The notes under the pieces were generated by a model, which made no database searches, was not told where the DNA came from, and was given only the letters and a program-made list of their open reading frames with translations. This document shows, one piece after another, positions 642 to 37,107 of a stretch of DNA of 64,000 nucleotides. The stretch spans positions 1,853 to 65,852 of the forward strand of contig JAZNRO010000049.1 in NCBI GenBank assembly GCA_045590715.1. The letters run 5' to 3'. This stretch comes from Eubacteriales bacterium (GTDB taxonomy: Bacteria; Bacillota; Clostridia; Oscillospirales; SIG627). Position 1 is the first letter of the stretch; every line of letters starts with the position of its first letter. A program made the position numbers and the translations under genes.

Positions 642-809
642 GTAAAAAGCAATGTAAAATGGTGACGAATAGTCGGCTATTTCAAAAAGCGAAAATTGAT
701 CTTTTACATAAAATGAATCTTTGTAAGCAGTGATCTTGCCTAAAGGACAAAGAGTCAAAAATTGAATATATTAAAAAGAACAAATCAAGGATATATAAGG
801 AGAGAAACA

Positions 810-1757
810 ATGCAAAAGAAAGTTACTATTATCGGAGCAGGTGCCGTTGGTTCCACCACAGCCTTTGCTCTTCTTACCAAAGGCGCAGCTTCTGAGGTTG
901 TTCTCATCGATGTGAACCACGAAAAAGCCCTGGGCGAAGCTATGGATATGAACCAGGCTACCCCCTACATTGACAACTGCTGCATTTACGCAGGCAGTTA
1001 TGAAGATGCCGTAGGATCCGACGTCGTTATCATCACCTCCGGCATTGGCAGAAAACCCGGCCAGACCCGTCTGGAACTGGTTCAGACCAACGTAGGAATC
1101 ATCAAGTCCATCTCTACCGAGATCGTAAAATACGCGCCTGATGCCATTTATCTTTTGGTAGCAAACCCCGTAGACATTTTGACCTACGCATTCCTGAAAT
1201 ACACCGGTCTTCCCAAGAACCAGGTATTCGGTACCGGTACGGTTCTTGATACCATCCGACTCCGCACCCGCCTTTCCGAGCTTTACAACGTAAACAAGCA
1301 GCAGGTACACGCAAACGTTCTGGGTGAGCACGGTGATACTTCTCTGGTTGCTTGGTCCACCGCTACCATTGCCGGTGTTCCTCTGGACCAGTACGTTCCC
1401 GCCATTGCCACCCCTTACTTCGAGCCCGAAGTATACACCAAGGAAGACGTTGAGACCTACGTGAGAAAATCCGGCGGTCAGATCATCGCCCGTAAAGGCT
1501 GCACTACCTACGGCATTGCCATTTCCTCCGCCCAGATCGTAAAGACTCTGGCAGGAAGCGCAGAAACCGCTCTTACCGTATCTTCCCTGCACGAAGGGGA
1601 ATACGGCATTTCCGACGTATGCTTAAGTTCTCTTTCTCTGGTTGACAGAACCGGTGTAAAATCCATCATCACCCAGACTCTCACCGACGAAGAACTGGCA
1701 AAACTCCACGCTTCTGCAGAAGCGCTGAAAGAAGTTATCAGAAGCGCCGGTCTGTAA
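810..1757 (+). CDS. L-lactate/malate dehydrogenase family NAD-dependent 2-hydroxyacid dehydrogenase (Arg at the substrate-specificity position)
   Basis: RBS AAGGAGAG precedes ATG 810 (ORF-track start 762 is unlikely). Motifs: IIGAGAVGS Rossmann motif, ANPVDIL, LDTIRLR, LGEHGDT catalytic His. The specificity loop reads SGIGRKPGQTRLEL. Confidence 0.85.
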   Translation: MQKKVTIIGAGAVGSTTAFALLTKGAASEVVLIDVNHEKALGEAMDMNQATPYIDNCCIYAGSYEDAVGSDVVIITSGIGRKPGQTRLELVQTNVGIIKSISTEIVKYAPDAIYLLVANPVDILTYAFLKYTGLPKNQVFGTGTVLDTIRLRTRLSELYNVNKQQVHANVLGEHGDTSLVAWSTATIAGVPLDQYVPAIATPYFEPEVYTKEDVETYVRKSGGQIIARKGCTTYGIAISSAQIVKTLAGSAETALTVSSLHEGEYGISDVCLSSLSLVDRTGVKSIITQTLTDEELAKLHASAEALKEVIRSAGL

Positions 1758-3231: not shown

Positions 3232-3456
3232 ACGGATCTTCCTTTCTGGTTTCAAAAAACAAAGGGGATTATATCACAAAAAAAGACAAAATGCAAGAAA
3301 AGACTACAACAATCTTTCTGCCTTTTTCCCCTTTTTTCTTCCTTTTACTACGGCAAAAACAAAGCCTTTTTTCGCTTTCCGCTTTTTATTTTACAAAAAT
3401 ACATCAAATTATCAAATTTTGGACTAAAAAATGCAAGGTTTTTGTCAAGAAAACTA

Positions 3457-3485
3457 TTGAAAAAAAAACATTTCTTTGATACAAT
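3457..3485 (+). promoter_or_regulatory. Candidate sigma-A promoter of the fumC-hdr-flx-frd operon
   Basis: TTGAAA, 17 nt, TACAAT; 50 nt upstream of the fumC ATG. Confidence 0.5.
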
Positions 3486-3534
3486 ATACTAGATTAGGAA
3501 TGTCGGCTTTCGACCGGCAATAAGGAGGAAATAA

Positions 3535-4911
3535 ATGAACTATCGCATCGAACACGACTCTATGGGCGAAGTGAAGGTTCCCGCAGACAAATATTGGGCT
3601 GCGCAGACCGAAAGAAGCCACGAGAACTTCAAGATCGGCGTTGGCATCGAAACCATGCCCAGAGAAATCACCCGCGCTTTTGGTATTCTGAAAAAAGCGG
3701 CCGCTATGGCAAACCACAATCTGAAGCCGGAAAAGATGACCGCAGAGAAACTGGAAGCCATCAAAACCGCTTGTGATGAAGTGATCTCCGGTTCTTTGAA
3801 CGATCATTTCCCCTTGGTTGTATGGCAGACCGGCAGTGGCACCCAGTCCAACATGAATGCAAACGAAGTCATCGCAAACCGCGGAAACGAGATCGCCGGC
3901 AAAAAGCTTCTCCACCCCAACGATGATATCAATAGGTCCCAGAGCACCAAGGACACCTTCCCCACTGCCATGCACATTGCCGCAGTAGAGATCGTGGAAA
4001 ACAAGCTCTTCCCCGCAATGGACCTTCTCATTTCCACTCTCATCCGTCTGGAAAAAGAAAACGAAGGCATCGTAAAAAGCGGCAGAACCCATCTGCAGGA
4101 CGCTACCCCCGTTACCTTCTCCCAGGAGATCTCCGGCTGGAGAAGCAGTCTGGAAAAGGATAAGGAACTTCTGAAAGCTTCCCTTACCCATCTCCACGAA
4201 CTGGCACTGGGCGGCACCGCCGTTGGTACGGGACTGAACACCCCCAAGGGATTTGATAAAGAAGTAGCAAAGGCTGTTTCCGAAATTACCGGAAAAGAAT
4301 TTGTTACCGCTCCCAATAAATTCCACGCTCTCACTTCCAAAGACGAACTGGTATTTGCTCACGGTGCTATGAAAGCACTGGCAGCAGACCTGATGAAGAT
4401 CGCAAACGATATCCGCTGGCTGGCCAGTGGCCCCACACTTGCTATCGGTGAGATCTTCATTCCCGAAAACGAGCCCGGTTCTTCCATTATGCCCGGTAAG
4501 GTAAACCCCACCCAGTGCGAAGCAGTTACCATGGTAGCCGTACAGGTTATGGGTAACGACGTAGCCGTTGGTATGGCAGCAAGCCAGGGCAACTTTGAAC
4601 TGAACGTGTTTATGCCCGTGTGCATTTACAACTTCCTCCAGTCTGCCCGTCTTCTGGCTGAGTCTATCGTTTCCTTTAATGATAACTGCGTTACCGGAAT
4701 CCGCGCAAACCGCGAAAAGATGCATGCAAACCTCCACAACTCTCTGATGCTGGTAACGGCTCTCAATCCTTACATCGGATATGAAAACGCCGCAAAGACC
4801 GCAAAGAAAGCCTTCAAGGAAAACATTTCCCTGAAAGAAGCTTGCGTGGCCCTGGGCTTTTTGACCGCAGAAAAGTTTGACCAAGTTTTCCATCCTGAAC
4901 AGATGGTTTAA
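3535..4911 (+). CDS. fumC: Class II fumarate hydratase
   Basis: 458 aa. GSSIMPGKVNPTQCE lyase signature, WQTGSGTQSNMNANEVIANR, N-terminus MNYRIEHDSMGEVKVPADKYWAAQTERS. RBS AAGGAGG. Confidence 0.9.
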   Translation: MNYRIEHDSMGEVKVPADKYWAAQTERSHENFKIGVGIETMPREITRAFGILKKAAAMANHNLKPEKMTAEKLEAIKTACDEVISGSLNDHFPLVVWQTGSGTQSNMNANEVIANRGNEIAGKKLLHPNDDINRSQSTKDTFPTAMHIAAVEIVENKLFPAMDLLISTLIRLEKENEGIVKSGRTHLQDATPVTFSQEISGWRSSLEKDKELLKASLTHLHELALGGTAVGTGLNTPKGFDKEVAKAVSEITGKEFVTAPNKFHALTSKDELVFAHGAMKALAADLMKIANDIRWLASGPTLAIGEIFIPENEPGSSIMPGKVNPTQCEAVTMVAVQVMGNDVAVGMAASQGNFELNVFMPVCIYNFLQSARLLAESIVSFNDNCVTGIRANREKMHANLHNSLMLVTALNPYIGYENAAKTAKKAFKENISLKEACVALGFLTAEKFDQVFHPEQMV

Positions 4912-4935
4912 TATAAAATAGAAAGGAACTCTGAT

Positions 4936-5712
4936 ATGGTTTTTCAATACTACCCCGGTTGTACCTTAAGAACCAAGGCAAAAGAACTTGACCGCAAGGC
5001 AAGACTCTGTGCCGAGGCTTTGGGCGTGACCCTGAATGAAACTCCCGAATGGCAGTGCTGCGGCGGTTGTTACCCCGTGGCAAAAGACGAGATCGCGACC
5101 AAGCTTTCCGCTGTCCGCACCATGATGGCAGCGCGTGACGCCGGAATGCCCGTTGTAACCGTTTGCTCTGCTTGTCACAACGTATTAAAGAGAGTCAATA
5201 ACGATATGAAGACCGATGCAGTGATCGCTGATCGCGTTAATCGTTATATGAAGAACGAAACTCCCTACCTGGGAGAAGGCGAAGTTCTTCACTTTATCGA
5301 AATGCTCCGTGACAAAGTGGGATTTGATAAGATCCGTGAAATGGTAAAGAACCCTCTCACCGGAAGAAAGATCGGCGCCTACTACGGCTGTCTGCTCCTC
5401 CGTCCCGGCAAGGTAATGGCATTTGACGATCCCGAAAACCCCACCATCATCGAGGACTTTATCCGCGCACTGGGTGCAGATCCCGTGATCTATCCCTATC
5501 GCAATGAGTGCTGCGGCGCTTACGTGACTCTGGAGAATAAGGAAAGCGCAGTAAAGAAATCCGGCGCTGTCCTCCACTCTGCTGCTGCAAATGGCGCAGA
5601 ATGTGTGATCACCGCTTGTCCCCTTTGCCTTTACAATCTGCAGAAGTCCGGCGGAGAAATTCCTGCCGTCTACTTTACCGAGCTTCTCGCCGAAGCTTTG
5701 GGAATCGAATAA
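4936..5712 (+). CDS. hdrB: Heterodisulfide reductase subunit B-like protein (two CCG domains)
   Basis: 258 aa. YYPGC...CCGG and YYGC...CCGA...ACPLC motifs, i.e. a duplicated CCG (Cys-rich) domain as in HdrB/TfrB/SdhE. Confidence 0.8.
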   Translation: MVFQYYPGCTLRTKAKELDRKARLCAEALGVTLNETPEWQCCGGCYPVAKDEIATKLSAVRTMMAARDAGMPVVTVCSACHNVLKRVNNDMKTDAVIADRVNRYMKNETPYLGEGEVLHFIEMLRDKVGFDKIREMVKNPLTGRKIGAYYGCLLLRPGKVMAFDDPENPTIIEDFIRALGADPVIYPYRNECCGAYVTLENKESAVKKSGAVLHSAAANGAECVITACPLCLYNLQKSGGEIPAVYFTELLAEALGIE

Positions 5713-5721
5713 GGAGGCATT

Positions 5722-6108
5722 ATGGAACAGAAGTTTTTGAAAGAACAGATCCTTCGTATGAGCGGTGTAAACCCCCGCAAGTGTATGAAATGCGGTAAGT
5801 GCAGTGGAACCTGTCCCTCCTACGAGGAAATGGAATTCCATCCCCACCAGTTCGTATACATGGTGGAAAACGGAGATATCGAGCCTTTGATGGCTTCCAA
5901 ATCTCTTTATCAGTGTCTGACCTGCTTTGCCTGTGTGGAGCGTTGCCCCCGTCAGGTAGAGCCTGCAAAACTCATTGAAGCGGTTCGTCTTGCTACCATC
6001 CGTCAGCAGGGCAAGAACCACTTAAAGCCCGACAGTCTCCCCGCTCTTTTAGACGAGGATATGCCTCAGCAGGCACTGGTGTCTGCCATGAGAAAATACG
6101 CAAAATAG
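5722..6108 (+). CDS. hdrC: Heterodisulfide reductase subunit C-like 4Fe-4S ferredoxin
   Basis: 128 aa. CMKCGKCSGTCP and CLTCFACVERCP cluster motifs. 9-nt gap after hdrB, RBS AAGGAGG. Confidence 0.75.
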   Translation: MEQKFLKEQILRMSGVNPRKCMKCGKCSGTCPSYEEMEFHPHQFVYMVENGDIEPLMASKSLYQCLTCFACVERCPRQVEPAKLIEAVRLATIRQQGKNHLKPDSLPALLDEDMPQQALVSAMRKYAK

Positions 6109-6117
6109 GAGGACGAT

Positions 6118-8109
6118 ATGCAAAGAATCGGCGTTTTCGTTTGCTGGTGTGGTAGTAATATCGCCGCAACCGTTGATGTAAAAGCCGTTGCTGAAGCTCT
6201 TTCCAAAGAGCCCGGCGTGGTTTATTACGAAGATTATCAGTACATGTGCTCCGAGGAAGAACAGAACAAGATCAAGAATGCCATCCGTGATTACAAGCTC
6301 ACCGGTGCCGTTGTCTGCTCCTGCTCTCCCCGTATGCACGAAAACACCTTCCGCAAGGCCGCAGCTGCCGCAGGAGTAAACTCCTTTATGGTAGAGATCG
6401 CCAATATCCGTGAGCAGTGCTCCTGGATCCACAAGGATAAACAGAGTGCTACCGAAAAAGCGATCATTCTCGGTAGAGCCGCCATTGCAAAGGTACATTT
6501 GAACACTCCCCTTACCGCCGGAGAAAGCCCGGTCGTAAAGAGAGCATTGGTTATCGGTGGCGGTATCGCCGGTATCCAGACTGCACTTGACATTGCAGAT
6601 GCAGGATTTGAAGTAGACATCGTGGAAAAGAAGCCTACCGTCGGCGGTAAGATGAGCCAGATCGACAAGACCTTTCCCACCCTGGACTGTGCTGCTTGTA
6701 TCCTGACTCCCAAAATGGTAGACGTAGCCCAGAACGAAAAGATCCGCATCTTCGCCTTCAGTGAAGTGGATTCCGTAAAGGGCTTTGTAGGTAACTTTAA
6801 CGTATCCATCCGCCGCAAGGCAAGATACGTTGACGAAGTGAAGTGTACGGGCTGCGGTCTTTGTACCGAAAAGTGCCCCCAGAAAAAGGTTCCCAACGAT
6901 TTCAACTTAGGTCTGGATCAGAAGAGAGCCATTTACATTCCCTTCGCTCAGGCAGTTCCGAAGGTTGCAACCATTGACCCCGACTACTGTACCATGCTGA
7001 AGACCGGCAAGTGCGGTGTCTGCGCCAAGGTTTGTACCGCCGGTGCTATTGACTACAAGCAACAGGATACTTTCGTAGAAGAACAGTACGGTGCTATCGT
7101 AGTTGCAACCGGCTTTAACCCCATTGAACTAAAGAAATACGACGAGTTTGCTTACTCCCAGTCTCCCGACGTTATCACCTCCCTGGAATTTGAACGCATT
7201 ACCAATGCGGCAGGTCCCACCGGCGGCGTACTCCTTCGTCCTTCCGACGGAGAGCATCCTCACAAGATCGTATTCGTTCAGTGTGTCGGTAGCCGTGAAG
7301 ACGGTAACGGTTGCGGTAAGACTTACTGCTCCAAGATCTGCTGTATGTATACCGCAAAGCACGCCATGCTGACCCGCGAAAAATATCCGGATACCGAAGT
7401 TTACGTATTCTACATTGACGTTCGTACTCCCGGTAAGAACTTTGATGAGTTCTACCGCAGAGCCGTAGAAGAATACGGCGTTCACTACATCAAGGGTATG
7501 GTTGGTAAGGTTTCTCCCGAAAACGGAAAACTTATGGTGCGCGCTTCCGATCTGATCGAAGGCAAGCAGATGACCATTGACGCTGACCTTGTGGTTCTGG
7601 CAGCTGCCATTGAGCCCGACAAATCCGCCCGTCCTTTGGCTACCATGCTCACCGCTTCCATGGATACCAACGACTTCTTTACCGAAGCACATCCCAAGCT
7701 CCGTCCTGTAGAAAGCCCCACCGCCGGCATCTTCCTTTCCGGTTGCTGCCAGGGACCCAAGGACATTCCCGAAACCGTTGCCCAGGCTTCCGCTTGTGCC
7801 GCAAAGGTTATCGGACTTCTGGCAAAAGATACCCTTACCTGCAACGCTTGTGTTGCTCATTCTAACGAAATGCTCTGTAACGGATGTTCCTCCTGTGAAA
7901 AGGTATGTCCCTACGGCGCTATCACCTACGAAGAAAAAGAATTCCGTATGCCCGATCGCACCACCAAGGTTCGCAGAGTGGCAAGCGTGAACCCGGCTGT
8001 ATGTCAGGGATGCGGTGCTTGTACTGTTGCTTGTCCCAGCGGTGCTATGGACCTTCACGGATTCTCTAACAGACAAATCATGGCGGAGGTAGATGCAATA
8101 TGCAAGTAG
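6118..8109 (+). CDS. hdrA: Heterodisulfide reductase subunit A-like FAD/Fe-S protein
   Basis: 663 aa. VIGGGIAGIQTALDIADAG FAD fold, hallmark KTFPTLDCAACILTPKM, several CxxCxxCxxxCP ferredoxin motifs. Confidence 0.85.
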   Translation: MQRIGVFVCWCGSNIAATVDVKAVAEALSKEPGVVYYEDYQYMCSEEEQNKIKNAIRDYKLTGAVVCSCSPRMHENTFRKAAAAAGVNSFMVEIANIREQCSWIHKDKQSATEKAIILGRAAIAKVHLNTPLTAGESPVVKRALVIGGGIAGIQTALDIADAGFEVDIVEKKPTVGGKMSQIDKTFPTLDCAACILTPKMVDVAQNEKIRIFAFSEVDSVKGFVGNFNVSIRRKARYVDEVKCTGCGLCTEKCPQKKVPNDFNLGLDQKRAIYIPFAQAVPKVATIDPDYCTMLKTGKCGVCAKVCTAGAIDYKQQDTFVEEQYGAIVVATGFNPIELKKYDEFAYSQSPDVITSLEFERITNAAGPTGGVLLRPSDGEHPHKIVFVQCVGSREDGNGCGKTYCSKICCMYTAKHAMLTREKYPDTEVYVFYIDVRTPGKNFDEFYRRAVEEYGVHYIKGMVGKVSPENGKLMVRASDLIEGKQMTIDADLVVLAAAIEPDKSARPLATMLTASMDTNDFFTEAHPKLRPVESPTAGIFLSGCCQGPKDIPETVAQASACAAKVIGLLAKDTLTCNACVAHSNEMLCNGCSSCEKVCPYGAITYEEKEFRMPDRTTKVRRVASVNPAVCQGCGACTVACPSGAMDLHGFSNRQIMAEVDAICK

Positions 8110-8537
8110 AAAAGAAGTTTGAGCCCACCATCGTAGCATTCTGCTGCAACTGGTGTTCCTACGCAGGCGCTGACCTTTCCGGTACCAACCGTCTTCAGTA
8201 CCCTGCCAACGTAAAGATCATTCGTGTTCCCTGCTCCTGCAGAGTAAACCCCATGTTCATTCTCCGCGCCTTCCAGAGAGGCGCAGACGGTGTTATCCTT
8301 TGCGGATGCCACCCCGGTGACTGTCACTACACCACCGGTAACTACTACGCCCGTCGCCGTATGACTCTCTTCTTCTCCATGCTGAACTTCCTTGGCATCG
8401 AGAAAGACAGAGTTCGTCTGGAATGGGTCAGCGCCGCAGAAGGCGCGAAATTTGCCGCCACCATGAACGAATTTGTTGAAACCGTTACGAAACTTGGTGA
8501 AAACAGAAGATTGGAGGATTTGAGATGCAAAAAGTAA
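8100..8537 (+). CDS. mvhD: MvhD/FlpD-type (FlxD-like) hydrogenase delta-subunit-family Fe-S protein
   Basis: 145 aa. IVAFCCNWCSYAGADLSG...IRVPCSCRV...LCGCHPGDCHY. 10-nt overlap with hdrA. Confidence 0.8.
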   Translation: MQVEKKFEPTIVAFCCNWCSYAGADLSGTNRLQYPANVKIIRVPCSCRVNPMFILRAFQRGADGVILCGCHPGDCHYTTGNYYARRRMTLFFSMLNFLGIEKDRVRLEWVSAAEGAKFAATMNEFVETVTKLGENRRLEDLRCKK

Positions 8538-9493
8538 TTCGTGAAAAAGCCAAAGATCTTCTCTCTTCCGGCAAGGTAGACCGAGTACTGGGCTGGACCG
8601 AAGGCGAATTCTTCTACGACCAGACTCCCGAAGTATTCAAGACCGCGGAAGAAATTGAAAAAGGATTCGTTTATAACGGATTCTCCGGTGCTAACCTTTC
8701 CAAGTACCTGGTAAAGGAAAGCCGCAAAGAAGGAAAGGTTGCCGTTTTCTTAAAACCCTGCGACACTTACTCCTTCAGCCAGCTTTTAAAAGAGCATCGC
8801 ATTGCAAGAGAAAACGTATACGCCGTTGCCATCCCCTGCGAAGGAAAGCTTGACATCGAGCTGATCCGTGCAGAAGGCATCAAGGGTATTACCGCTATCA
8901 CCGAAGAGGGCGACGAAATTGTCATCACCACCCTTTACGGCGAAGAAAAACTGGCAAAAGAAAAAGCACTTGCCGAGCGCTGCAGAAACTGCAAGAGCAA
9001 AAAGCACGTGATCTTTGACGAGATCATCGGCGAAGAAGGCGAAGAGGTTGAATCCGGCCGTTTCGATATGGTAGAAGAGCTTGAAAATATGACCGAAGAA
9101 GAAAGATTTCTCTTCTGGCAGAACGAGCTTTCCCGCTGTATCCGTTGTAACGCCTGCCGTAACGTTTGCCCTGCCTGCACCTGTGAAAAGTGTGTATTTG
9201 ACAATGCCGCTTCCGGTATTGAAAGCAAGGCTCCCGCTTCTTCTTTTGAAGAACAGAACTTCCACATCATCCGCGCCTTCCACGTTGCCGGAAGATGTAC
9301 CGACTGTGGCGAGTGCTCCAGAGTTTGTCCCCAGAGCATTCCCCTGCACCTTTTAAACCGCAAGTTTATCAAAGATATCAACGAGTTCTACGGTGACTAC
9401 CAGGCCGGTAAAAATGCCGATGAACGTTATCCTTTGACCAACTACACCGTGGACGATATGGAACCGTCCGACGCTTTTCAGAAGGGAGAGTAA
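8525..9493 (+). CDS. Cys-rich Fe-S oxidoreductase subunit (FlxC / FrhB-like class)
   Basis: 322 aa. CIRCNACRNVCPACTC and CTDCGECSRVCP motifs. Overlaps the mvhD stop (translational coupling). Confidence 0.6.
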   Translation: MQKVIREKAKDLLSSGKVDRVLGWTEGEFFYDQTPEVFKTAEEIEKGFVYNGFSGANLSKYLVKESRKEGKVAVFLKPCDTYSFSQLLKEHRIARENVYAVAIPCEGKLDIELIRAEGIKGITAITEEGDEIVITTLYGEEKLAKEKALAERCRNCKSKKHVIFDEIIGEEGEEVESGRFDMVEELENMTEEERFLFWQNELSRCIRCNACRNVCPACTCEKCVFDNAASGIESKAPASSFEEQNFHIIRAFHVAGRCTDCGECSRVCPQSIPLHLLNRKFIKDINEFYGDYQAGKNADERYPLTNYTVDDMEPSDAFQKGE

Positions 9494-9496
9494 ACA

Positions 9497-10516
9497 ATGA
9501 AAAAGATTAACGTTTCAAAACTCCCCGCTCTTCTTTCCGCTTTGGCCAAGAAAGAAGCTCTGTATCTGCCTGTTGACGGCAAAGCCGGCGCAGACTACAA
9601 GCGTTTTGAAGAGGGTGACACCCTTTCTACCGCGCTGAATACCAACAGAAGCGCAAAAGACTTCTTCTTCCCCCAGGTAGAAGATATGGCTTCCTTCAAA
9701 GTAGAAGGACAGAAGATCGAAGTTTTCGATACCAGAAAGGAAAACGAAGATTTCATCATCTTCGGTGCAAGAGCCTGTGACGTAAGAAGCTTTGACATTC
9801 TGGACAGAGTGTTCCTGGGCGCACCGGTAGACACCTTCTATCAGAACAGAAGAGAGCATGCGACCATCGTTTCCATCGCTTGTTCCAGACCCGAAGAAAC
9901 CTGCTTCTGCGGCTCCTTCGGTATTGATGCGGCAAACCCCGCTGGTGATATCAGCGCAGTATACGTAGGCGACGAGCTCTACTTTACCGCTAACACCGAC
10001 AAGGGCACCGCGCTTCTCGACAGCGTTTCCGACCTTCTGGAAGAAGGCGACGAAAAGAAAGCGGAGAAAGAAAAAGAAGCCATCAAGGAAACCTTGAAAA
10101 AGCTTCCCCTTCAGGATCTTCCCACCGATCACTTCAAGGCTGAAGACCTGATGGAGCACTTTGCCGATGCAAATTGGGCAGAGCTTTCCAAGGCTTGTCT
10201 GGGCTGCGGTACTTGTACCTTCGTATGCCCCACCTGTCAGTGCTTTGACGTTCGCGATTTTGATACCGGACACGGCATTCAGCGTTATCGCTGCTGGGAC
10301 TCCTGCATGTATTCCGACTTTACTCAGATGGCGGCAGAAAACCCCAGACACACTCAGCTGGAAAGATTCCGCCAGAGATTTATGCACAAGCTGGTATACT
10401 ACCCCGCCAACAACGAAGGCATCTTCGGTTGCGTAGGCTGTGGCAGATGTCTTGCAAAATGCCCCATTAATATGAATATTGTAAAAGTAATGAAAAAGAT
10501 TGGAGGGGACAAATAA
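9497..10516 (+). CDS. 4Fe-4S dicluster subunit, AsrA / sulfhydrogenase-beta / FlxB-like
   Basis: 339 aa. CLGCGTCTFVCPTCQCFD and CVGCGRCLAKCP. 3-nt gap from the upstream gene. Confidence 0.6.
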   Translation: MKKINVSKLPALLSALAKKEALYLPVDGKAGADYKRFEEGDTLSTALNTNRSAKDFFFPQVEDMASFKVEGQKIEVFDTRKENEDFIIFGARACDVRSFDILDRVFLGAPVDTFYQNRREHATIVSIACSRPEETCFCGSFGIDAANPAGDISAVYVGDELYFTANTDKGTALLDSVSDLLEEGDEKKAEKEKEAIKETLKKLPLQDLPTDHFKAEDLMEHFADANWAELSKACLGCGTCTFVCPTCQCFDVRDFDTGHGIQRYRCWDSCMYSDFTQMAAENPRHTQLERFRQRFMHKLVYYPANNEGIFGCVGCGRCLAKCPINMNIVKVMKKIGGDK

Positions 10517-11343
10517 TGATGAAAGAAGCTTTGATCCCCGATATCGGTGTGATCACCGATATTCGCATTGACACTCCGGACGTTAGAACCTTCCGCGTGG
10601 TTACCCCCGATGGAAAGAAACCCTTCGAGCATATCCCCGGTCAGTGCGCATTTCTCTCCATTCCCGGTGTAGGCGAAGCGCTGTTCTCTATCACCTCTTC
10701 CCCCACGAACACCGAATATATGGAGTTTTCCATCAAAAAGTGCGGCTGTGTTACCAGCTTTCTCCACTCCATTGAGCCCGGCCAGTACGTGACCATCCGT
10801 GGTCCTTACGGCAACGGCTTCCCCGTGGAAACGGCTTTCAAGGGAAAAGATCTTCTCTTCGTAGCCGGCGGTATCGGCCTTGCACCTTTAAGATCCGTCA
10901 TCAACTACTGCCGTCATTACAGAGAAAATTACGGCTCCATTGATATCGTTTACGGCTCCCGTTCTATGCAGGATCTGGTAGACTACAACGAGATCATGGA
11001 AGAGTGGTGCAAAGAAGACGGTATCAACGTTCACCTGACCATCGACCGCGAACAGCCCGAATGGTCCGGCCACGTAGGCTTTGTACCCAACTTTGTAAAG
11101 GAACTGGGCTTTGATACCAACAAGACCGCAGTTCTTTGCGGACCTCCCATTATGATCAAATTCACTCTGGCAGGACTGCAGGAGATCGGATTCAAGAAGG
11201 ATCAGATCTACACCACCCTGGAAATGCGTATGAAGTGCGGCATCGGAAAATGCGGCAGATGCAACCTGGGTGACAAATTCATCTGTAAAGACGGACCTGT
11301 CTTCCGCTTTGACCAGCTGGAAGAACTTCCCGACGAATATTAA
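10516..11343 (+). CDS. FAD/NAD(P)H-binding oxidoreductase with C-terminal 2Fe-2S site (AsrB / HydG / PyrK / FlxA-like)
   Basis: 275 aa. FNR-like fold (FVAGGIGLAPLRS), C-terminal MKCGIGKCGRCNLG motif. Start overlaps the upstream stop. Confidence 0.7.
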   Translation: MMKEALIPDIGVITDIRIDTPDVRTFRVVTPDGKKPFEHIPGQCAFLSIPGVGEALFSITSSPTNTEYMEFSIKKCGCVTSFLHSIEPGQYVTIRGPYGNGFPVETAFKGKDLLFVAGGIGLAPLRSVINYCRHYRENYGSIDIVYGSRSMQDLVDYNEIMEEWCKEDGINVHLTIDREQPEWSGHVGFVPNFVKELGFDTNKTAVLCGPPIMIKFTLAGLQEIGFKKDQIYTTLEMRMKCGIGKCGRCNLGDKFICKDGPVFRFDQLEELPDEY

Positions 11344-11364
11344 TCGTATCGAAAGGATAGAAAG

Positions 11365-12039
11365 ATGGAAAAGAATGTAAATATCTTCCTGTACGGAAAA
11401 AAATACTCCGTACCCGGAAACCTTACCATTATGAACGCAATGGAATATGCCGGCTATCAGCTGGTTCGCGGTTGCGGTTGCCGTAACGGCTTCTGTGGCG
11501 CTTGCGCTACCATTTACAGAATCAAGGGTGACACCGAACTGAAGGCTTGTCTTGCTTGTCAGACCAAGGTTGAGGACAATATGTATATTGCCACTCTCCC
11601 CTTCTTCCCCTTGGTAAAACAGATCTACGACATTGAAAAGATCGGTCCTACCGAACAGATCATGATGCAGCTCTACCCCGAAATCTACAGCTGTATCGGT
11701 TGTAACGCCTGCACCAAGGCTTGCACCCAGGAACTGAACGTGATGCAGTACATCGCTTACGCTCAGAGAGGCGAGTACGAAAAGTGCGCGGAAGAAAGCT
11801 TTGACTGCGTTATGTGCGGCGTATGCTCCTCCCGTTGCCCTGCCGGTATCAGCCATCCCCAGGTAGCAATGCTGGCTCGCAGACTCAACGGTAAGTACCT
11901 TGCTCCCGGATGCGGACATCTGGAAGACAGAGTAAAAGAGATCAACGACGGCACCTTCCAGGAACTCCTTGAGAACCTGATGCAGAAGCCCATCGATGAA
12001 CTCAAAGAACTCTACAACAATCGTGAGATCGAGAAATAA
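11365..12039 (+). CDS. Succinate dehydrogenase/fumarate reductase iron-sulfur subunit-like protein
   Basis: 224 aa. N-terminal CGCRNGFCGACA (2Fe-2S-type), then CIGCNACTKAC and CVMCGVCSSRCP. Confidence 0.6.
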   Translation: MEKNVNIFLYGKKYSVPGNLTIMNAMEYAGYQLVRGCGCRNGFCGACATIYRIKGDTELKACLACQTKVEDNMYIATLPFFPLVKQIYDIEKIGPTEQIMMQLYPEIYSCIGCNACTKACTQELNVMQYIAYAQRGEYEKCAEESFDCVMCGVCSSRCPAGISHPQVAMLARRLNGKYLAPGCGHLEDRVKEINDGTFQELLENLMQKPIDELKELYNNREIEK

Positions 12040-12053
12040 GGAGGGAAAGCACA

Positions 12054-13649
12054 ATGTATAATGAAGATATTCGCCTTTCTCTGGCAAAAGTAGAGGCAAA
12101 CAGAAAAGCAAATGCTGCCTCCGAACCCAAAAGAATGACTGCCGAGGAGAAGGAAAAGCTCCTTGCTACCTTCCACCCCGACTATATCGAAAGCCAGTTT
12201 GATACGCTTGCCATCGGCCCCAACAAGGGTCAGAAGGTTCCCGTAGAACTGAAGGCTCTTCTGGAAGCAAATTCCAGAGTAAAGGGTCTTGACCTGGATC
12301 TGGAAAACGTTGACTACGACGTAGACGTACTGGTAATCGGCGGCGGCGGTGCCGGCGCCAGCGCAGCCATTGAAGCCCACGAAAAGGGCGCAAAGGTTAT
12401 GATCGCTACCAAGCTCCGTATCGGCGATGCCAACACCATGATGGCAGAAGGCGGTATTCAGGCTGCTGATAAGCCCAACGACTCCCCCGCAATCCACTAC
12501 GTAGACGCACTGGGCGGCGGACACTTTAAGAACAAGCCCGAACTTCTCTACCGTCTTGTTACCGAAGCTCCCGACGCCATCAAATGGCTCAACGAGCTGG
12601 GCGTAGAATTCGATAAGATGGCTGACGGTACTATGGTTACCACCCACGGCGGCGGTACCAGCCGTAAGAGAATGCACGCTGCCAAGGACTACTCCGGCGC
12701 AGAAATCATGCGTACTCTCCGCGATGAGGTATTCAACCGTCAGATCCCCGTTGTTGATTTCACCGCAGCTATTGAACTGATCCTGGACGAGGAAGGCAAG
12801 GCTGCCGGTGCTGTTCTCCAGAATATGGAAACCGGCGAAATTATGATCGCCCGTGCAAAGACTGTTATCATCGCTACCGGCGGTTGCGGCAGACTGCACT
12901 ACCAGGGCTTCCCCACCTCCAACCACTACGGTGCTACCGCAGACGGTCTGGTTCTGGGTTACAGAGCAGGCGCAAAGCTTCTCTACGCTGATACTCTTCA
13001 GTATCACCCCACCGGTGCTGCATACCCCGAACAGATCTTCGGCGCACTGGTAACCGAAAAAGTTCGTTCTCTGGGCGCTATGCTCATTAACTGCGACGGT
13101 ACTGCTTTCATGCATCCCTTGGAAACCCGTGACGTTTGCGCTTCTTCTATCATTCGTGAATGCAAGGAACGCGGCAAGGGTATTAAGACTCCCATGGGCG
13201 AAGGCATCTGGCTGGATACTCCCATGATCGAAATGAAGGGTGGCGAGGGTACCATCGAAAAGAGAATCCCCGCTATGATGAGAATGTTCGGCAAATACGG
13301 TATTGATATCCGTAAAGAGCCCATCCTGATCTACCCCACTCTCCACTACCAGAACGGCGGTCTTGAAATCAAGAAGGACAACGAGACCAACATTCCCAAC
13401 CTGTACGTAGCTGGCGAAGCCGTTGGCGGTATCCACGGTAGAAACAGACTAATGGGTAACTCCCTGCTTGACATCATCGTATTCGGTAGAAGCGCAGGTA
13501 AGAATGCTGCTGACAGAGCGGCTGATACCAAGGTTGGAAAGCTCACCCTTTCCCACGTTGACGCTTTTGCAAAGGAAATGGCTGATGCCGGTATCAAGTC
13601 CGATATCGTATCTCCCAAGCTCCTTCCCGACTACAAGAGAAAAGTTTAA
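12054..13649 (+). CDS. Fumarate reductase/succinate dehydrogenase-family flavoprotein (soluble type; no covalent-FAD His)
   Basis: 531 aa. VLVIGGGGAGASAAIEA, LQYHPTG, ETRDV, LHYQNGG, GEAVGGIHGRNRLMGNSLLD. RBS AAGGAGGG. Confidence 0.75.
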   Translation: MYNEDIRLSLAKVEANRKANAASEPKRMTAEEKEKLLATFHPDYIESQFDTLAIGPNKGQKVPVELKALLEANSRVKGLDLDLENVDYDVDVLVIGGGGAGASAAIEAHEKGAKVMIATKLRIGDANTMMAEGGIQAADKPNDSPAIHYVDALGGGHFKNKPELLYRLVTEAPDAIKWLNELGVEFDKMADGTMVTTHGGGTSRKRMHAAKDYSGAEIMRTLRDEVFNRQIPVVDFTAAIELILDEEGKAAGAVLQNMETGEIMIARAKTVIIATGGCGRLHYQGFPTSNHYGATADGLVLGYRAGAKLLYADTLQYHPTGAAYPEQIFGALVTEKVRSLGAMLINCDGTAFMHPLETRDVCASSIIRECKERGKGIKTPMGEGIWLDTPMIEMKGGEGTIEKRIPAMMRMFGKYGIDIRKEPILIYPTLHYQNGGLEIKKDNETNIPNLYVAGEAVGGIHGRNRLMGNSLLDIIVFGRSAGKNAADRAADTKVGKLTLSHVDAFAKEMADAGIKSDIVSPKLLPDYKRKV

Positions 13650-13660
13650 GTTATAAAAAA

Positions 13661-13691
13661 AGAGCAGATCCAAATGGATCTGCTCTTTTTC
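13661..13691 (+). terminator. Rho-independent terminator closing the fumC-frd operon
   Basis: Stem AGAGCAGATCC / GGATCTGCTCT, loop AAAT, followed by a T-run. Confidence 0.8.
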
Positions 13692-13729
13692 TTTCGGGAT
13701 AAAAAATCGGTATTTTTCTGCCGATTTTT

Positions 13730-14116
13730 TTATTTTAAATATTCTTTTTGATAAAGCAAAAGGGCGCAAAGGCCGAGAAGAAGGCTGATACCAAGTCCCG
13801 CAAGGGAGAAGTTTCGGATTCCGCCGGTCAAAGGCAGAAGGGACAGGATCGTTCCGGCAAAGGACAGGAAAAAGGCACTTTTCTCCCACTTTTCCTTGAA
13901 GAAGGAAAGGATAAGGATCAAAACAAATAAAGTGCTTAAGATCGCTGTCAAAAGCGGAAAGAAATTGGCATAGCCGTAAGGGGTAAGACTAAAATAGGAA
14001 TACGTTCTGCGAACGGTTTTACCGGAATCAAGGGCGAAATTCAGTACCGCGCCCCAAGGCATGATCTCTAAAAAAAGCACAACCAGTGAAAGGATAAAAG
14101 CAAAACGTTTTTTCAT
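13730..14116 (-). CDS. Small integral membrane protein (about 4 TM), function unknown
   Basis: 128 aa, hydrophobic segments throughout. Directly downstream of rdgB on the same strand. Confidence 0.55.
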   Translation of the reverse strand: MKKRFAFILSLVVLFLEIMPWGAVLNFALDSGKTVRRTYSYFSLTPYGYANFFPLLTAILSTLFVLILILSFFKEKWEKSAFFLSFAGTILSLLPLTGGIRNFSLAGLGISLLLGLCALLLYQKEYLK

Positions 14117-14127
14117 ATAGCCCTCCT

Positions 14128-14703
14128 TTAAGAAAGCTTTAAAAGCAGTTTCTGCAAGGCTTCTGCCCGATGGCTGATCTGATTTTTCTTTTCTGCGCTG
14201 AGTTCTGCGGCAGTACAGCCGTACTGGGGCAAATAGAAGTAAGGATCGTAACCGAAGCCGCCCTCTCCTTTGGGGGTATCAATGATCTGACCGAAAAGGT
14301 ACCCTTCCGTACAGATCTCTTTTCCATCCGGGAAACAAAGACACATAGCGCAGGTGTAATGGGCATCTCTATTTTCTTCACCCTGCAGTTTTTCTACCAA
14401 AAGACGGTTATTGGCTTCATCGTCCCCGTGTCTGCCGCAAAAGCGGGCAGAGTAAATACCGGGGGCGCCGCCTAAAGCGTCTACGCAAATTCCACTGTCA
14501 TCCGCCAGGGCCGCACAGCCGGAAATTTCAGCAATTTCTCTGGCCTTCTTTCTGGCATTTTCCCGGAAGGTCTCGCCGTCTTCTACAGTTTCGTGATCGA
14601 TTCCCGCCTCGCGGATGGAAAGGATCTCTTCAAACTTTTCCCCTAAAATGGCGCGGATCTCACGGATCTTTCCGGCATTGCCGGAGGCAATGATCAGTTT
14701 CAT
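14128..14703 (-). CDS. rdgB: Non-canonical purine NTP pyrophosphatase (RdgB/HAM1 family)
   Basis: MKLIIASGNAGKIREI..., ...FGYDPYF..., SHRAEAL motifs. ATG 14703 abuts the glyA stop; the track's N-terminal extension overlaps glyA. Confidence 0.85.
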   Translation of the reverse strand: MKLIIASGNAGKIREIRAILGEKFEEILSIREAGIDHETVEDGETFRENARKKAREIAEISGCAALADDSGICVDALGGAPGIYSARFCGRHGDDEANNRLLVEKLQGEENRDAHYTCAMCLCFPDGKEICTEGYLFGQIIDTPKGEGGFGYDPYFYLPQYGCTAAELSAEKKNQISHRAEALQKLLLKLS

Positions 14704-14704
14704 A

Positions 14705-15946: not shown

Positions 15947-16028
15947 TTTTCTTTTCTCCTTATTATCATTCTATTAAAAGAGGGATTTCCTCAAAATCAT
16001 CATATGCGTTTTTTATTGGACTGTAAAA

Positions 16029-37104: not shown

Positions 37105-37107
37105 TTT

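What the first reader, a model, noticed from the sequence alone, without database searches (positions are those of the whole stretch)
3457..13691. Single operon fusing fumC, hdrBCA-mvhD, an Flx-like NAD(P)H module and a soluble FrdBA-like pair: candidate flavin-based electron-bifurcating (or confurcating) fumarate reductase
Seen directly: one promoter-like element (3457-3485) and one terminator (13661-13691). Ten genes lie between them, with gaps of 24 nt or less or with overlaps (for example hdrA/mvhD by 10 nt, mvhD/next by 13 nt). No subunit has a membrane anchor, so there is no FrdC/D equivalent.

Established knowledge:
- HdrA-MvhD modules are the core of flavin-based electron bifurcation.
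- FlxABCD-HdrABC is a proposed NADH-linked complex in anaerobes.
- CCG-domain proteins act in thiol:fumarate reductase (TfrB) of methanogens.

Inference: fumarate produced by FumC is reduced by the FrdA-like flavoprotein, using electrons routed through Hdr/Flx (NADH and/or ferredoxin). This would be a soluble energy-coupling alternative to quinol:fumarate reductase. Physical linkage of all three modules plus fumC in one transcription unit is not something I recognise as characterised.
Basis: partly seen in the sequence, partly recalled or inferred. Interest (0 to 1): 0.65.

Follow-up and report, generated by a model that had tools for sequence, protein, structure and literature searches.

The report
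Soluble Flx-Hdr-linked fumarate reductase operon
This is a real ten-gene operon for a membrane-free fumarate reductase that probably uses NADH to reduce fumarate and ferredoxin together; the design was already proposed for another Clostridium, has never been tested biochemically, and turns out to be very common in gut and rumen Clostridia.

Summary
Ten co-directional genes (3535-13649) lie between the best promoter-like site and a strong terminator. Gaps are 24 nt or less, or the genes overlap. None of the ten proteins has a membrane helix.

The genes are fumC, hdrB, hdrC, hdrA, mvhD/flxD, flxC, flxB, flxA, a [2Fe-2S]+2x[4Fe-4S] FrdB-like protein and a FrdA-like flavoprotein.

- **Flavoprotein:** it keeps every fumarate/succinate catalytic residue, but an invariant Asn replaces the His that binds FAD covalently. 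Its fold is closest to E. coli FrdA. It does not cluster with L-aspartate oxidase; it forms its own clade beside TfrA/SdhA.
- **Synteny:** the gene order is kept in all of 80 species-level genomes of Oscillospiraceae, Christensenella, Yeguia and relatives whose contigs reach far enough. It is usually preceded by rex and a malate dehydrogenase.
- **Novelty:** the same operon, matching in order and gene sizes, was described as the "succinate operon" of Pseudoclostridium thermosuccinogenes (2019 preprint, 2020 paper). A related linkage was proposed for tubeworm symbionts. I found no biochemical proof.

Verdict: a new member of a known, still hypothetical kind; moderate interest.

The parts
810..1757 (+). 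LDH-family malate dehydrogenase (ORF as listed 762-1757; the likely start is Met17 at 810). It is a separate transcription unit with its own terminator at 1809-1841, and supplies malate to FumC.
   Evidence: Ldh_1_N and Ldh_1_C domains. NCBIfam scores it as L-LDH (360 bits against a cutoff of 339; the MDH model scores 281.5 against 283). It nevertheless has Arg in the GRKPGQTR motif, at the position of LDH Gln102, as do all 36 upstream homologues found in relatives. Terminator -16.7 kcal/mol, z = -7.1.
3457..3485 (+). Sigma-70-like promoter candidate: TTGAAA, 17-nt spacer, TG, TACAAT.
   Evidence: Best + strand match, 10/12, with an extended -10 TG; it lies in the 279-nt gap before fumC. A consensus match only.
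3535..4911 (+). fumC, class II fumarate hydratase (458 aa).
   Evidence: TIGR00979, 708.6 bits, above its cutoff of 664.75; Lyase_1 plus FumaraseC_C domains.
4936..5712 (+). HdrB-like CCG protein (258 aa) with both CX31-CC-X34-CXXC-type motifs.
   Evidence: Pfam CCG, two stretches. 115 bits to solved methanogen HdrB, aligned over residues 3-237 with the CC and CxxC cysteines aligned. Best NCBIfam matches are SdhE (158.6 bits) and HdrB (135.7 bits), both below cutoff.
5722..6108 (+). HdrC-like 2x[4Fe-4S] ferredoxin subunit (128 aa).
   Evidence: Fer4_17/Fer4_8 domains; TIGR03290 HdrC 66 bits, below its cutoff.
6118..8109 (+). HdrA, the candidate bifurcating flavoprotein (663 aa, 35 Cys).
   Evidence: E = 2e-202 and 677 bits to 5ODC_A over residues 3-660, with all the Fe-S cysteine motifs aligned. 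783 bits to the HdrA2 model.
8100..8537 (+). MvhD/FlxD [2Fe-2S] connector (145 aa); overlaps hdrA by 10 nt.
   Evidence: PF02662 FlpD, 192 bits, full length.
8525..9493 (+). FlxC-like Fe-S protein (322 aa), related to the FdhB/FrhB beta subunits that dock onto MvhD-HdrA in methanogen complexes.
   Evidence: Fer4_8/Fer4_17 domains. 79-85 bits to FdhB chains of Fdh-Hdr complexes 9T1S_M, 7BKB_E and 8RVU_E.
9497..10516 (+). FlxB-like Fe-S protein (339 aa), related to sulfhydrogenase beta and AsrA.
   Evidence: Fer4_22, 106 bits; ShyB 175 bits, AsrA 142 bits. 147.5 bits to Pyrococcus sulfhydrogenase I beta, 9NEZ_B.
10516..11343 (+). FlxA-like FAD/NAD(P)H-binding protein with a [2Fe-2S] domain (275 aa): the NAD(P)H entry point.
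   Evidence: FAD_binding_6, NAD_binding_1 and DHODB_Fe-S_bind domains. 204.5 bits to sulfhydrogenase I gamma, 9NEZ_C.
11365..12039 (+). FrdB-like iron-sulfur subunit (224 aa): an N-terminal [2Fe-2S] domain plus two CxxCxxCxxxC motifs. It has no CCG domain.
   Evidence: Fer2_4 and Fer4_7 domains. Residues 10-87 match TfrB 17-94 (41 bits) and dhsB (32 bits). Similarity to solved SdhB is only weak (E about 1e-3); the dicluster part looks most like RnfC. Cysteine motifs read from the sequence.
12054..13649 (+). FrdA-like soluble flavoprotein (531 aa): a 90-aa N-terminal extension, FAD and capping domains, and no complex II C-terminal domain.
   Evidence: FAD_binding_2, 243 bits, residues 91-471. 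Best NCBIfam match TfrA, 349 bits, below its cutoff of 718. Asn127 replaces the covalent-FAD His; H318, T320, E335, R338, R359, H431 and R465 are conserved. AF2 model pLDDT 95.9. Foldseek best hit is E. coli FrdA 1KF6_A, TM 0.73.
13657..13694 (+). Intrinsic terminator: a 15-bp stem with a GC-rich core at 13662-13685, then a U run.
   Evidence: -23.1 kcal/mol, z = -6.65; sequence.

Best explanation
The operon encodes a cytoplasmic, quinone-independent fumarate reductase system.

**Pathway.** Malate made by the upstream LDH-family malate dehydrogenase is dehydrated by FumC. The FrdA-like flavoprotein, which holds its FAD non-covalently, then reduces the fumarate to succinate.

**Electron path.**
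1. NAD(P)H is oxidised at FlxA (FAD, [2Fe-2S]).
2. Electrons pass through the Fe-S clusters of FlxB and FlxC to the [2Fe-2S] cluster of MvhD/FlxD, and on to the FAD of HdrA.
3. There the electron pair is split. One electron goes uphill through the ferredoxin domains of HdrA to a low-potential ferredoxin.
4. The other goes downhill through HdrC and HdrB to FrdB and then to the FrdA flavin.

**Net reaction.** 2 NADH + fumarate + oxidised ferredoxin -> 2 NAD+ + succinate + reduced ferredoxin. The reduced ferredoxin can then drive Rnf or a hydrogenase. That would give a quinone-free bacterium the energetic equivalent of fumarate respiration.

**Shown here:** the gene content, the cofactor motifs, the catalytic residues, the fold, the operon structure and the conserved synteny.

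**Inferred:** fumarate as the substrate, NADH as the donor, bifurcation to ferredoxin, and direct Fe-S wiring between Hdr and FrdB rather than a thiol shuttle.
For: **Operon and modules**
- Ten tightly packed or overlapping genes lie between one promoter-like site and one strong terminator.
- HdrA is full length and about 55% identical to the structurally characterised bifurcating HdrA, with all Fe-S cysteine motifs present.
- HdrB keeps both CCG motifs. MvhD is complete.
- FlxA and FlxB match the NAD(P)H-oxidising gamma and beta subunits of sulfhydrogenase I. FlxC matches the FdhB subunits found in the solved Fdh-Hdr complexes; that these dock on MvhD-HdrA is my own knowledge of those structures.

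**Flavoprotein**
- FrdA-like keeps H318, T320, E335, R338, R359, H431 and R465, equivalent to E. coli FrdA H232, R287, H355, R390 and neighbours (the numbering is my own knowledge, applied to the alignment).
- It has Glu132 at the position of FrdA E49, and an invariant Asn127 instead of the His that binds FAD covalently. From my own knowledge, a non-covalent FAD is typical of unidirectional soluble fumarate reductases.
- The predicted fold is closest to E. coli FrdA.
- The NJ tree separates it from NadB.

**Conservation and context**
- Synteny of fumC-hdrBCA-mvhD-flxCBA-frdBA is kept in all sufficiently long loci from 80 species.
- rex and mdh lie upstream in relatives, with Arg102-type MDH in all 36 detected and Rex-box-like sites in 14 loci.
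- A relative at 56% identity has hdrA-mvhD-hdrC-hdrB-frdB-frdA next to korDABG. Hdr-Frd linkage therefore recurs in a different gene order.
- A gammaproteobacterial relative has frdB-frdA plus a NuoF-like gene and no CCG protein in that locus. FrdB can therefore apparently be fed by an Fe-S partner directly.

**Published support**
- In P. thermosuccinogenes the operon with matching gene order and sizes is highly expressed and co-regulated.
- Redox potentials are NADH -320 mV and fumarate +33 mV (PMC5861303).
Against: - No biochemical data exist for any member, as far as the held literature shows.
- All Hdr and Frd subunits score below the NCBIfam equivalog cutoffs, so function cannot be transferred by family membership.
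- The flavoprotein belongs to a clade with no characterised member that I know of.
- HdrB keeps an apparently intact disulfide-reducing site. That fits a thiol intermediate at least as well as a pure electron relay.
- The same FrdBA module works with a simple NuoF-like partner elsewhere, so bifurcation is not required for fumarate reduction as such.
- The low-potential acceptor is not encoded in the window.
Confidence: 0.55

Rival explanations
1. Two enzymes linked by a thiol/disulfide shuttle, as in methanogens. FrdBA would oxidise a low-molecular-weight or protein dithiol to reduce fumarate. Flx-Hdr would then re-reduce the disulfide with NADH while bifurcating to ferredoxin. This is how the P. 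thermosuccinogenes authors phrase it.
For: HdrB keeps both CCG motifs that form the disulfide-reducing noncubane clusters. The methanogen TfrAB plus Mvh-Hdr system is a precedent, and TfrA is the best-scoring NCBIfam model for the flavoprotein. PMC7282089 states that Flx-Hdr transfers electrons to 'ferredoxin (and thiols)'.
Against: FrdB is only 224 aa and has no CCG domain. It matches only the [2Fe-2S] part of TfrB (residues 10-87), so FrdBA has no recognisable thiol-oxidising site. No DsrC-like or other thiol-carrier gene lies in the operon. A relative's frdB-frdA-nuoF-like operon has no CCG protein in that locus.
Confidence: 0.15
2. A non-bifurcating NAD(P)H:fumarate oxidoreductase. The Hdr and Flx proteins would serve only as a long Fe-S wire, as in the soluble five-subunit NADH-fumarate reductase of Hydrogenobacter thermophilus, and no ferredoxin would be reduced.
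For: NADH to fumarate is strongly exergonic on its own. A relative pairs the same FrdBA with a single NuoF-like NADH dehydrogenase subunit. [quoted passage not shown] 2008, listed in the reference list seen; the details are from my own knowledge).
Against: A complete HdrA with all six cluster motifs and both ferredoxin domains, plus MvhD, is kept at about 80-97% identity across 80 species. That is costly if it serves only as a wire. In P. thermosuccinogenes, added H2 nearly abolishes succinate production, which the authors read as ferredoxin coupling.
Confidence: 0.15
3. The flavoprotein acts on another substrate, such as L-aspartate (NadB-like) or another enoate, and the linkage to fumC is incidental.
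For: The protein lies in an uncharacterised clade. It scores below every NCBIfam cutoff and is annotated only as 'FAD-dependent oxidoreductase' in public records. NadB shares the same catalytic residues.
Against: NadB is a separate clade with 100% support. NadB needs no Fe-S partner, whereas frdB is always adjacent. fumC is adjacent in almost all loci and mdh in most. No nadA or nadC is nearby. All four dicarboxylate-binding residues (two His, two Arg) are kept.
Confidence: 0.05
4. Reverse physiological direction. Succinate oxidation would be pulled by confurcation with reduced ferredoxin to make NADH, as a syntrophic succinate or propionate oxidiser would need.
For: Hdr-type bifurcating enzymes are reversible in principle. 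This would solve the energetic problem of succinate oxidation without high-potential quinones (my inference).
Against: The His that binds FAD covalently is replaced by an invariant Asn; from my own knowledge, non-covalent FAD enzymes of this family reduce fumarate but oxidise succinate poorly. Glu132 is of the FrdA type. The carriers are fermentative gut and rumen Clostridia. P. thermosuccinogenes excretes succinate.
Confidence: 0.05

Closest known systems
'Succinate operon' of Pseudoclostridium thermosuccinogenes (fumC, CDQ83_RS03360-03330 Flx-Hdr, RS03325-03320 fumarate reductase; Koendjbiharie and co-workers, BMC Microbiol 2020, PMC7282089, and the 2019 Preprints.org preprint of Koendjbiharie & van Kranenburg cited there)
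   Same: The order is the same and the gene sizes nearly so:
- fumC about 455 aa (458 here)
- a 784-nt gene (hdrB here, 777 nt)
- a 325-nt gene (hdrC here, 387 nt)
- five overlapping genes spanning 5348 nt (hdrA to flxA here, 5226 nt)
- a 676-nt gene (frdB here, 675 nt)
- a 1603-nt gene (frdA here, 1596 nt)

The proposed function is also the same: NADH-dependent fumarate reduction coupled to ferredoxin reduction.
   Different: That operon ends with a small hypothetical gene of about 82 aa, proposed to be a transporter. The window has no such gene; a terminator follows frdA directly. I could not compare the sequences directly, because the scan of genome contigs returned only relatives at 74% identity or more. 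That host is a thermophile; the window comes from an uncultured Oscillospiraceae-like gut or rumen bacterium.
rTCA gene clusters of Candidatus Endoriftia persephone and Thioflavicoccus mobilis, with tfrAB, flxABCD-hdrABC and korABCD (PMC6315080, PMC11636981)
   Same: A two-subunit soluble fumarate reductase is clustered with Flx-Hdr. It has been proposed to form a bifurcating complex that passes NADH electrons to fumarate and ferredoxin. A relative of the window's FrdA at 56% identity sits in a kor-hdrA-mvhD-hdrCB-frdBA cluster.
   Different: The context there is autotrophic CO2 fixation with 2-oxoglutarate:ferredoxin oxidoreductase, not fermentation. The gene order differs and fumC is not in the unit. 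I did not test whether their TfrA belongs to the same clade as the window's protein.
Thiol:fumarate reductase TfrAB plus MvhADG-HdrABC of methanogens without cytochromes
   Same: The net chemistry is the same: fumarate reduction tied to an HdrABC-MvhD bifurcating core. TfrA is the best-scoring NCBIfam model for the flavoprotein (349 bits) and TfrB for the [2Fe-2S] part of FrdB. Neither carries the His that binds FAD covalently.
   Different: TfrB carries its own CCG domains and oxidises CoM-SH and CoB-SH; here FrdB has none, and the only CCG protein is HdrB. The donor there is H2 through a hydrogenase; here it is an NAD(P)H module. The flavoprotein is below the TfrA cutoff (349 against 718) and lies outside the TfrA-type group in the tree. 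It lacks the C-terminal domain and has a 90-aa N-terminal extension.
FlxABCD-HdrABC NADH dehydrogenase/heterodisulfide reductase of Desulfovibrio vulgaris (Ramos et al. 2015, cited)
   Same: The same seven-protein module by domain content: an FAD/NAD(P)H protein with [2Fe-2S], two Fe-S proteins, MvhD, and HdrA, HdrB and HdrC.
   Different: The proposed high-potential acceptor there is the DsrC disulfide, during ethanol metabolism. Here no DsrC is present and a fumarate reductase is encoded in the same operon. The gene order is reversed (hdrBCA-flxDCBA). Sequences were not compared directly.
Soluble NADH-dependent fumarate reductase FrdABCDE of Hydrogenobacter thermophilus (Miura et al. 2008; own knowledge, reference seen)
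   Same: A cytoplasmic, multi-subunit, NADH-linked fumarate reductase without a membrane anchor. It is biochemically proven to exist.
   Different: It has no HdrA or MvhD and no evidence of bifurcation, and its NADH module is different. I could not read the paper here.
Membrane-bound quinol:fumarate reductase FrdABCD (E. coli, Wolinella)
   Same: The flavoprotein fold (1KF6_A, TM 0.73) and the catalytic residues. The partner Fe-S subunit begins with a [2Fe-2S] domain.
   Different: There is no membrane anchor and no quinone site. FAD is not bound covalently (Asn127). The Succ_DH_flav_C domain is absent. FrdB has two full four-Cys motifs where the canonical subunit (my own knowledge) has a [4Fe-4S]/[3Fe-4S] pair.

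Membership tests
Class II fumarate hydratase (FumC) | Full-length match above the curated equivalog cutoff, with Lyase_1 plus the FumaraseC C-terminal domain. | tested here: met
   TIGR00979, 708.6 bits, above 664.75. The aspartase models are below their cutoffs.
HdrABC-MvhD bifurcating core | Full-length HdrA with the FAD domain, the N-terminal cluster domain, and the inserted and C-terminal ferredoxin domains (six [4Fe-4S] motifs). | tested here: met
   677 bits to 5ODC_A over residues 3-660, with every cysteine motif aligned.
HdrABC-MvhD bifurcating core | HdrB with two CCG motifs, HdrC with two [4Fe-4S] motifs, and an MvhD [2Fe-2S] protein encoded alongside. | tested here: met
   CCG in two stretches; alignment to solved HdrB over residues 3-237; FlpD 192 bits.
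HdrABC-MvhD bifurcating core | Equivalog-level identity with CoB-CoM heterodisulfide reductases (curated score cutoffs). | tested here: not met
   HdrA 783 bits against 1100; HdrB 135.7 against 345; HdrC 66.3 against 160. It is a bacterial Hdr-like complex, not a CoM-S-S-CoB reductase.
HdrABC-MvhD bifurcating core | Demonstrated bifurcation and disulfide reduction. | not testable with these tools
   Needs enzyme assays.
FlxABCD NADH dehydrogenase module | FlxA with FAD, NAD(P)H and [2Fe-2S] domains; Fe-S proteins FlxB and FlxC; FlxD equal to MvhD; all adjacent to hdrABC. | tested here: met
   Domain content. Matches to sulfhydrogenase I beta and gamma and to FdhB. Adjacency.
FlxABCD NADH dehydrogenase module | Direct sequence relationship to the D. 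vulgaris FlxABCD proteins. | not tested
Thiol:fumarate reductase TfrAB | TfrA equivalog score. | tested here: not met
   349 bits against a cutoff of 718, matching model positions 6-419 of 546 only. It lies outside the TfrA-type group in the NJ tree.
Thiol:fumarate reductase TfrAB | TfrB with C-terminal CCG domains for thiol oxidation. | tested here: not met
   FrdB-like is 224 aa. It matches TfrB positions 17-94 only and has no CCG hit.
Complex II-type fumarate reductase/succinate dehydrogenase (FrdAB/SdhAB) | Catalytic His-Arg pairs, proton-donor Arg, and the Thr/Glu/Arg of the hinge region. | tested here: met
   H318, T320, E335, R338, R359, H431 and R465 are conserved in the window protein and its family.
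Complex II-type fumarate reductase/succinate dehydrogenase (FrdAB/SdhAB) | His for covalent 8-alpha-N3-histidyl FAD. | tested here: not met
   Asn127 (GDANT) aligns with FrdA His44 (RSHT) and is invariant in the family.
Complex II-type fumarate reductase/succinate dehydrogenase (FrdAB/SdhAB) | C-terminal helical domain (Succ_DH_flav_C) and membrane anchor subunits. | tested here: not met
   No PF02910 hit. Only about 447 of 531 residues align to FrdA. No hydrophobic helices in any of the ten proteins.
L-aspartate oxidase (NadB) | Equivalog score and clade membership. | tested here: not met
   TIGR00551, 279.7 bits against 452.75. Proteins passing the NadB cutoff form a separate clade with 100% bootstrap.

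The most novel reading that the evidence does not exclude
The FrdBA pair defines an uncharacterised clade of soluble fumarate reductases with non-covalent FAD. This clade takes interchangeable electron-input modules: Flx-Hdr here, Kor-Hdr in one relative and a NuoF-like subunit in Gammaproteobacteria. The Flx-Hdr version would then be a widespread route, not a curiosity of one thermophile. Many quinone-free gut and rumen Clostridia (Oscillospiraceae, Acutalibacteraceae, Christensenella, Yeguia) would use it to make succinate and gain extra energy via reduced ferredoxin and Rnf. That amounts to fumarate respiration without quinones.
Probability: 0.4. Interest if true: 0.7.

Novelty: new member of a known kind. 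Interest (0 to 1): 0.45.

Why it matters
If the complex bifurcates, fumarate would join crotonyl-CoA, caffeyl-CoA and heterodisulfide as a high-potential acceptor that drives ferredoxin reduction from NADH. That would explain how quinone- and cytochrome-free Clostridia gain energy from the reductive branch to succinate.

The operon is highly conserved. Its carriers live in human, ruminant and other animal guts. It could therefore bear on succinate and hydrogen budgets in those ecosystems.

Public annotation calls the key subunit only 'FAD-dependent oxidoreductase', so metabolic reconstructions probably miss it. Cultured carriers exist, so the hypothesis can be tested directly.

Tried and rejected
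- **Exact look-up of the window's FrdA in the contig index:** not on record.
- **Source papers:** neither the 2019 preprint nor Miura et al. 2008 is held.
- **Genome-contig scan with a family alignment:** I hoped to reach P. thermosuccinogenes and other distant carriers. The 80 loci kept were all at least 74% identical. The comparison with P. thermosuccinogenes therefore rests on gene order and gene lengths from the paper's supplement.
- **Rex operator in the window:** no match near the promoter at up to 3 mismatches. Rex control is inferred only for relatives.
- **Rfam scan of the whole window:** nothing.
- **First AF2 run with a shallow, 80-92% identical alignment:** unusable model, pLDDT 59. 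I replaced it with a diverse alignment, pLDDT 95.9.
- **Glu217 as a discriminator:** I considered using it (the position of NadB Glu121, from memory) to tell aspartate oxidase from fumarate reductase. I rejected this because TfrA-type, SdhA-type and NadB-type sequences all carry Glu there.
- **HdrB as an SdhE-type subunit:** the slightly higher SdhE score (158.6 against 135.7 bits) is not enough. Both are far below cutoff, and the protein aligns end to end with solved HdrB.
- **Literature searches for a biochemical characterisation:** none found.

Full report
**Observation**

The window carries ten co-directional genes at 3535-13649.

The promoter-like site at 3457-3485 (TTGAAA, 17 nt, TG-TACAAT) is the best + strand match. 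It lies in the only long intergenic gap. Such matches are no more frequent than chance in this region, so it is only a candidate.

The terminator is solid. A 15-bp hairpin at 13657-13690 with a U run folds at -23.1 kcal/mol (z = -6.65). The one hairpin at an internal gene junction is no better than shuffled sequence. No protein has a segment hydrophobic enough for a membrane helix.

**What the genes are** (and PDB sequence searches)

- **FumC:** passes the class II fumarase equivalog cutoff.
- **HdrA:** aligns end to end with the solved bifurcating HdrA of Methanothermococcus (677 bits), with every Fe-S cysteine motif in place.
- **HdrB:** keeps both CCG motifs.
- **HdrC and MvhD:** complete.
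- **FlxA and FlxB:** match the NAD(P)H-oxidising gamma and beta subunits of Pyrococcus sulfhydrogenase I.
- **FlxC:** matches the FdhB subunits present in the solved Fdh-Hdr complexes; that those subunits dock on MvhD-HdrA is from my own knowledge of the structures.
- **FrdB-like protein:** a [2Fe-2S] domain resembling the start of TfrB/SdhB, followed by two full CxxCxxCxxxC motifs. It has no CCG domain.
- **FrdA-like protein (531 aa):** an FAD_binding_2 core at residues 91-471, a 90-residue N-terminal extension, and no complex II C-terminal domain.

**The flavoprotein**

Aligned with E. coli FrdA, it keeps the substrate-binding and catalytic residues H318, T320, E335, R338, R359, H431 and R465, plus Glu132 at the FrdA E49 position. 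Asn127 replaces the histidine that binds FAD covalently. These features are invariant in 21 close homologues and in relatives down to 42% identity.

With a diverse alignment, AlphaFold2 gives a confident model (pLDDT 95.9) in which the N-terminal extension is ordered. Foldseek ranks E. coli FrdA first (TM 0.73, about 447 residues aligned). Other fumarate reductases and succinate dehydrogenases rank close behind, and NadB ranks 34th.

I built a neighbour-joining tree with reference sequences classified by NCBIfam. In it, the window's family and a set of roughly 400-residue relatives form a clade with 100% bootstrap support. NadB-type proteins form a separate clade, also with 100% support, and the TfrA-type and actinobacterial SdhA-type sequences lie outside the window's clade without forming well-supported groups of their own. 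So the protein is not an aspartate oxidase. By score and by tree it is also not a TfrA equivalog. It is a distinct soluble branch of the fumarate reductase superfamily.

**Conservation and context**

More than 8000 homologues were found. The best 120 are all at least 80% identical and come from Clostridia, Oscillospiraceae or Ruminococcaceae metagenome-assembled genomes. There they are annotated only as 'FAD-dependent oxidoreductase'.

In 80 species-representative genomes, every locus whose contig reaches far enough keeps the order hdrB-hdrC-hdrA-mvhD-flxC-flxB-flxA-frdB-frdA. Almost all also keep fumC, and most keep an Ldh/Mdh-family gene before it. Cultured carriers include Christensenella tenuis NSJ-35, Yeguia hominis NSJ-40 and a Candidatus Avoscillospira isolate.

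That upstream gene has Arg at the position that distinguishes malate from lactate dehydrogenases, in the window and in all 36 relatives examined, although NCBIfam scores the window's copy as L-LDH. In relatives rex precedes it, and 14 loci carry Rex-box-like palindromes just upstream of the first gene. The window has none. In the window a MatE gene separates mdh from fumC.

More distant family members show that the FrdBA pair is modular:

- At 56% identity it follows hdrA-mvhD-hdrC-hdrB next to korDABG.
- At 48% identity, in Gammaproteobacteria, it is followed by a NuoF-like gene and no CCG protein is in the locus.
- Elsewhere it is fused or stands alone.

**Mechanism**

The best-supported reading is an NAD(P)H-dependent fumarate reductase that bifurcates electrons at the HdrA flavin. 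One electron goes to ferredoxin. The other goes through HdrC/HdrB and FrdB to the FrdA flavin and then to fumarate. With NADH at -320 mV and fumarate at +33 mV, the downhill branch easily pays for ferredoxin reduction.

I favour direct Fe-S wiring over a thiol shuttle for three reasons. FrdB has no thiol-oxidising CCG domain. No thiol carrier is encoded in the operon. And a relative's FrdBA works with a plain Fe-S/flavin partner. The intact CCG site of HdrB keeps the shuttle model alive, however.

A non-bifurcating NADH:fumarate reductase, a different substrate, and reverse operation are less likely rivals. They are scored separately in the rival explanations.

**Comparison with what is known**

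The hypothesis is already published. Koendjbiharie and co-workers describe a 'succinate operon' in Pseudoclostridium thermosuccinogenes, made up of fumarate hydratase, seven Flx-Hdr genes, two fumarate reductase genes and a small hypothetical gene. [quoted passage not shown] Their expression table gives gene lengths that match the window almost gene for gene, along with high, co-regulated expression.

Rubin-Blum et al., and later papers, propose the same coupling for tfrAB and flxABCD-hdrABC in tubeworm symbionts. I found no biochemical characterisation.

The window is therefore a new member of a known, still hypothetical kind. This analysis adds three things:

- the residue-level and fold-level case for fumarate reduction with non-covalent FAD;
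- the placement of the flavoprotein in its own clade;
- the finding that the operon is highly conserved and common across gut and rumen Clostridia, rather than unique to one thermophile.

**Verdict**

Novelty is modest and interest is moderate (0.45). The main value is that a widespread, testable candidate for quinone-free energy conservation now has cultured carriers to test it in.

Noticed in passing
window 30000-52000, - strand: Prophage-like block: large terminase 50751-51977, portal 49356-50747, minor head protein 47789-49342, tape measure 39456-42320, and tail proteins 34633-39081.
   Followed up: partly
window 1873-3255 (-): A MATE efflux gene lies between the mdh-like gene and fumC. 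In almost all relatives mdh abuts fumC and rex precedes mdh, so the window's arrangement looks like an insertion that gave fumC its own promoter region.
   Followed up: partly
window 762-1757 (+): The Ldh/Mdh-family gene passes NCBIfam's L-lactate dehydrogenase cutoffs, yet it carries Arg at the Gln102 specificity position (GRKPGQTR), as do all 36 syntenic homologues. It is probably a malate dehydrogenase that automatic annotation would misname.
   Followed up: yes
L001 11621-12178; L004 11638-12187; L091 7455-7682; L092 6731-6985: In some relatives frdA is followed by a roughly 95-aa protein with three hydrophobic segments (by inspection of the sequence) and a weak PQ-loop match (SemiSWEET-like), and by a roughly 80-aa thioredoxin-like [2Fe-2S] ferredoxin. 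The small membrane protein also flanks a frdB-frdA fusion and a standalone family member. Neither gene is in the window. The membrane protein may correspond to the 'hypothetical, possibly succinate transporter' gene of P. thermosuccinogenes.
   Followed up: partly
L087 9366-12891: In Gammaproteobacteria/Thiotrichales MAGs, a 48%-identical FrdA with a 212-aa FrdB is followed by a NuoF-like gene (Complex1_51K, NADH_4Fe-4S). This is a three-gene candidate NADH:fumarate reductase without Hdr.
   Followed up: partly
L016 394; L080 512; 12 further loci: Rex-box-like palindromes (TTGTTAA-N4-TTAACAA; perfect in L016 and L080) lie 30-110 nt upstream of mdh or fumC, and up to about 270 nt upstream of hdrB in L033, in 14 relatives. 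None occurs in the window at up to 3 mismatches.
   Followed up: partly
L041, L036, L074: Contigs filed under Bacteroides uniformis, Treponema sp. and Bacteroidaceae carry the Clostridia-type cluster at 74-79% FrdA identity. This is probably binning contamination, or less likely gene transfer.
   Followed up: no
P0285: A 44%-identical family member with the N-terminal extension is recorded in 'Prochlorococcus sp. MIT 1201' on a 2.59-Mb contig, an unexpected host for this family.
   Followed up: no
window 13701-13730: A second hairpin (-13.2 kcal/mol, z = -3.6) directly after the operon terminator probably terminates the convergent - strand gene 13730-14116 (128 aa, no Pfam match).
   Followed up: partly
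window 14615-16237 (+) and 14705-15946 (-): Two long overlapping ORFs on opposite strands. The 540-aa + strand ORF has no Pfam match and overlaps the end of the Ham1 gene (14128-14790, -). Which of the two is real was not resolved.
   Followed up: no
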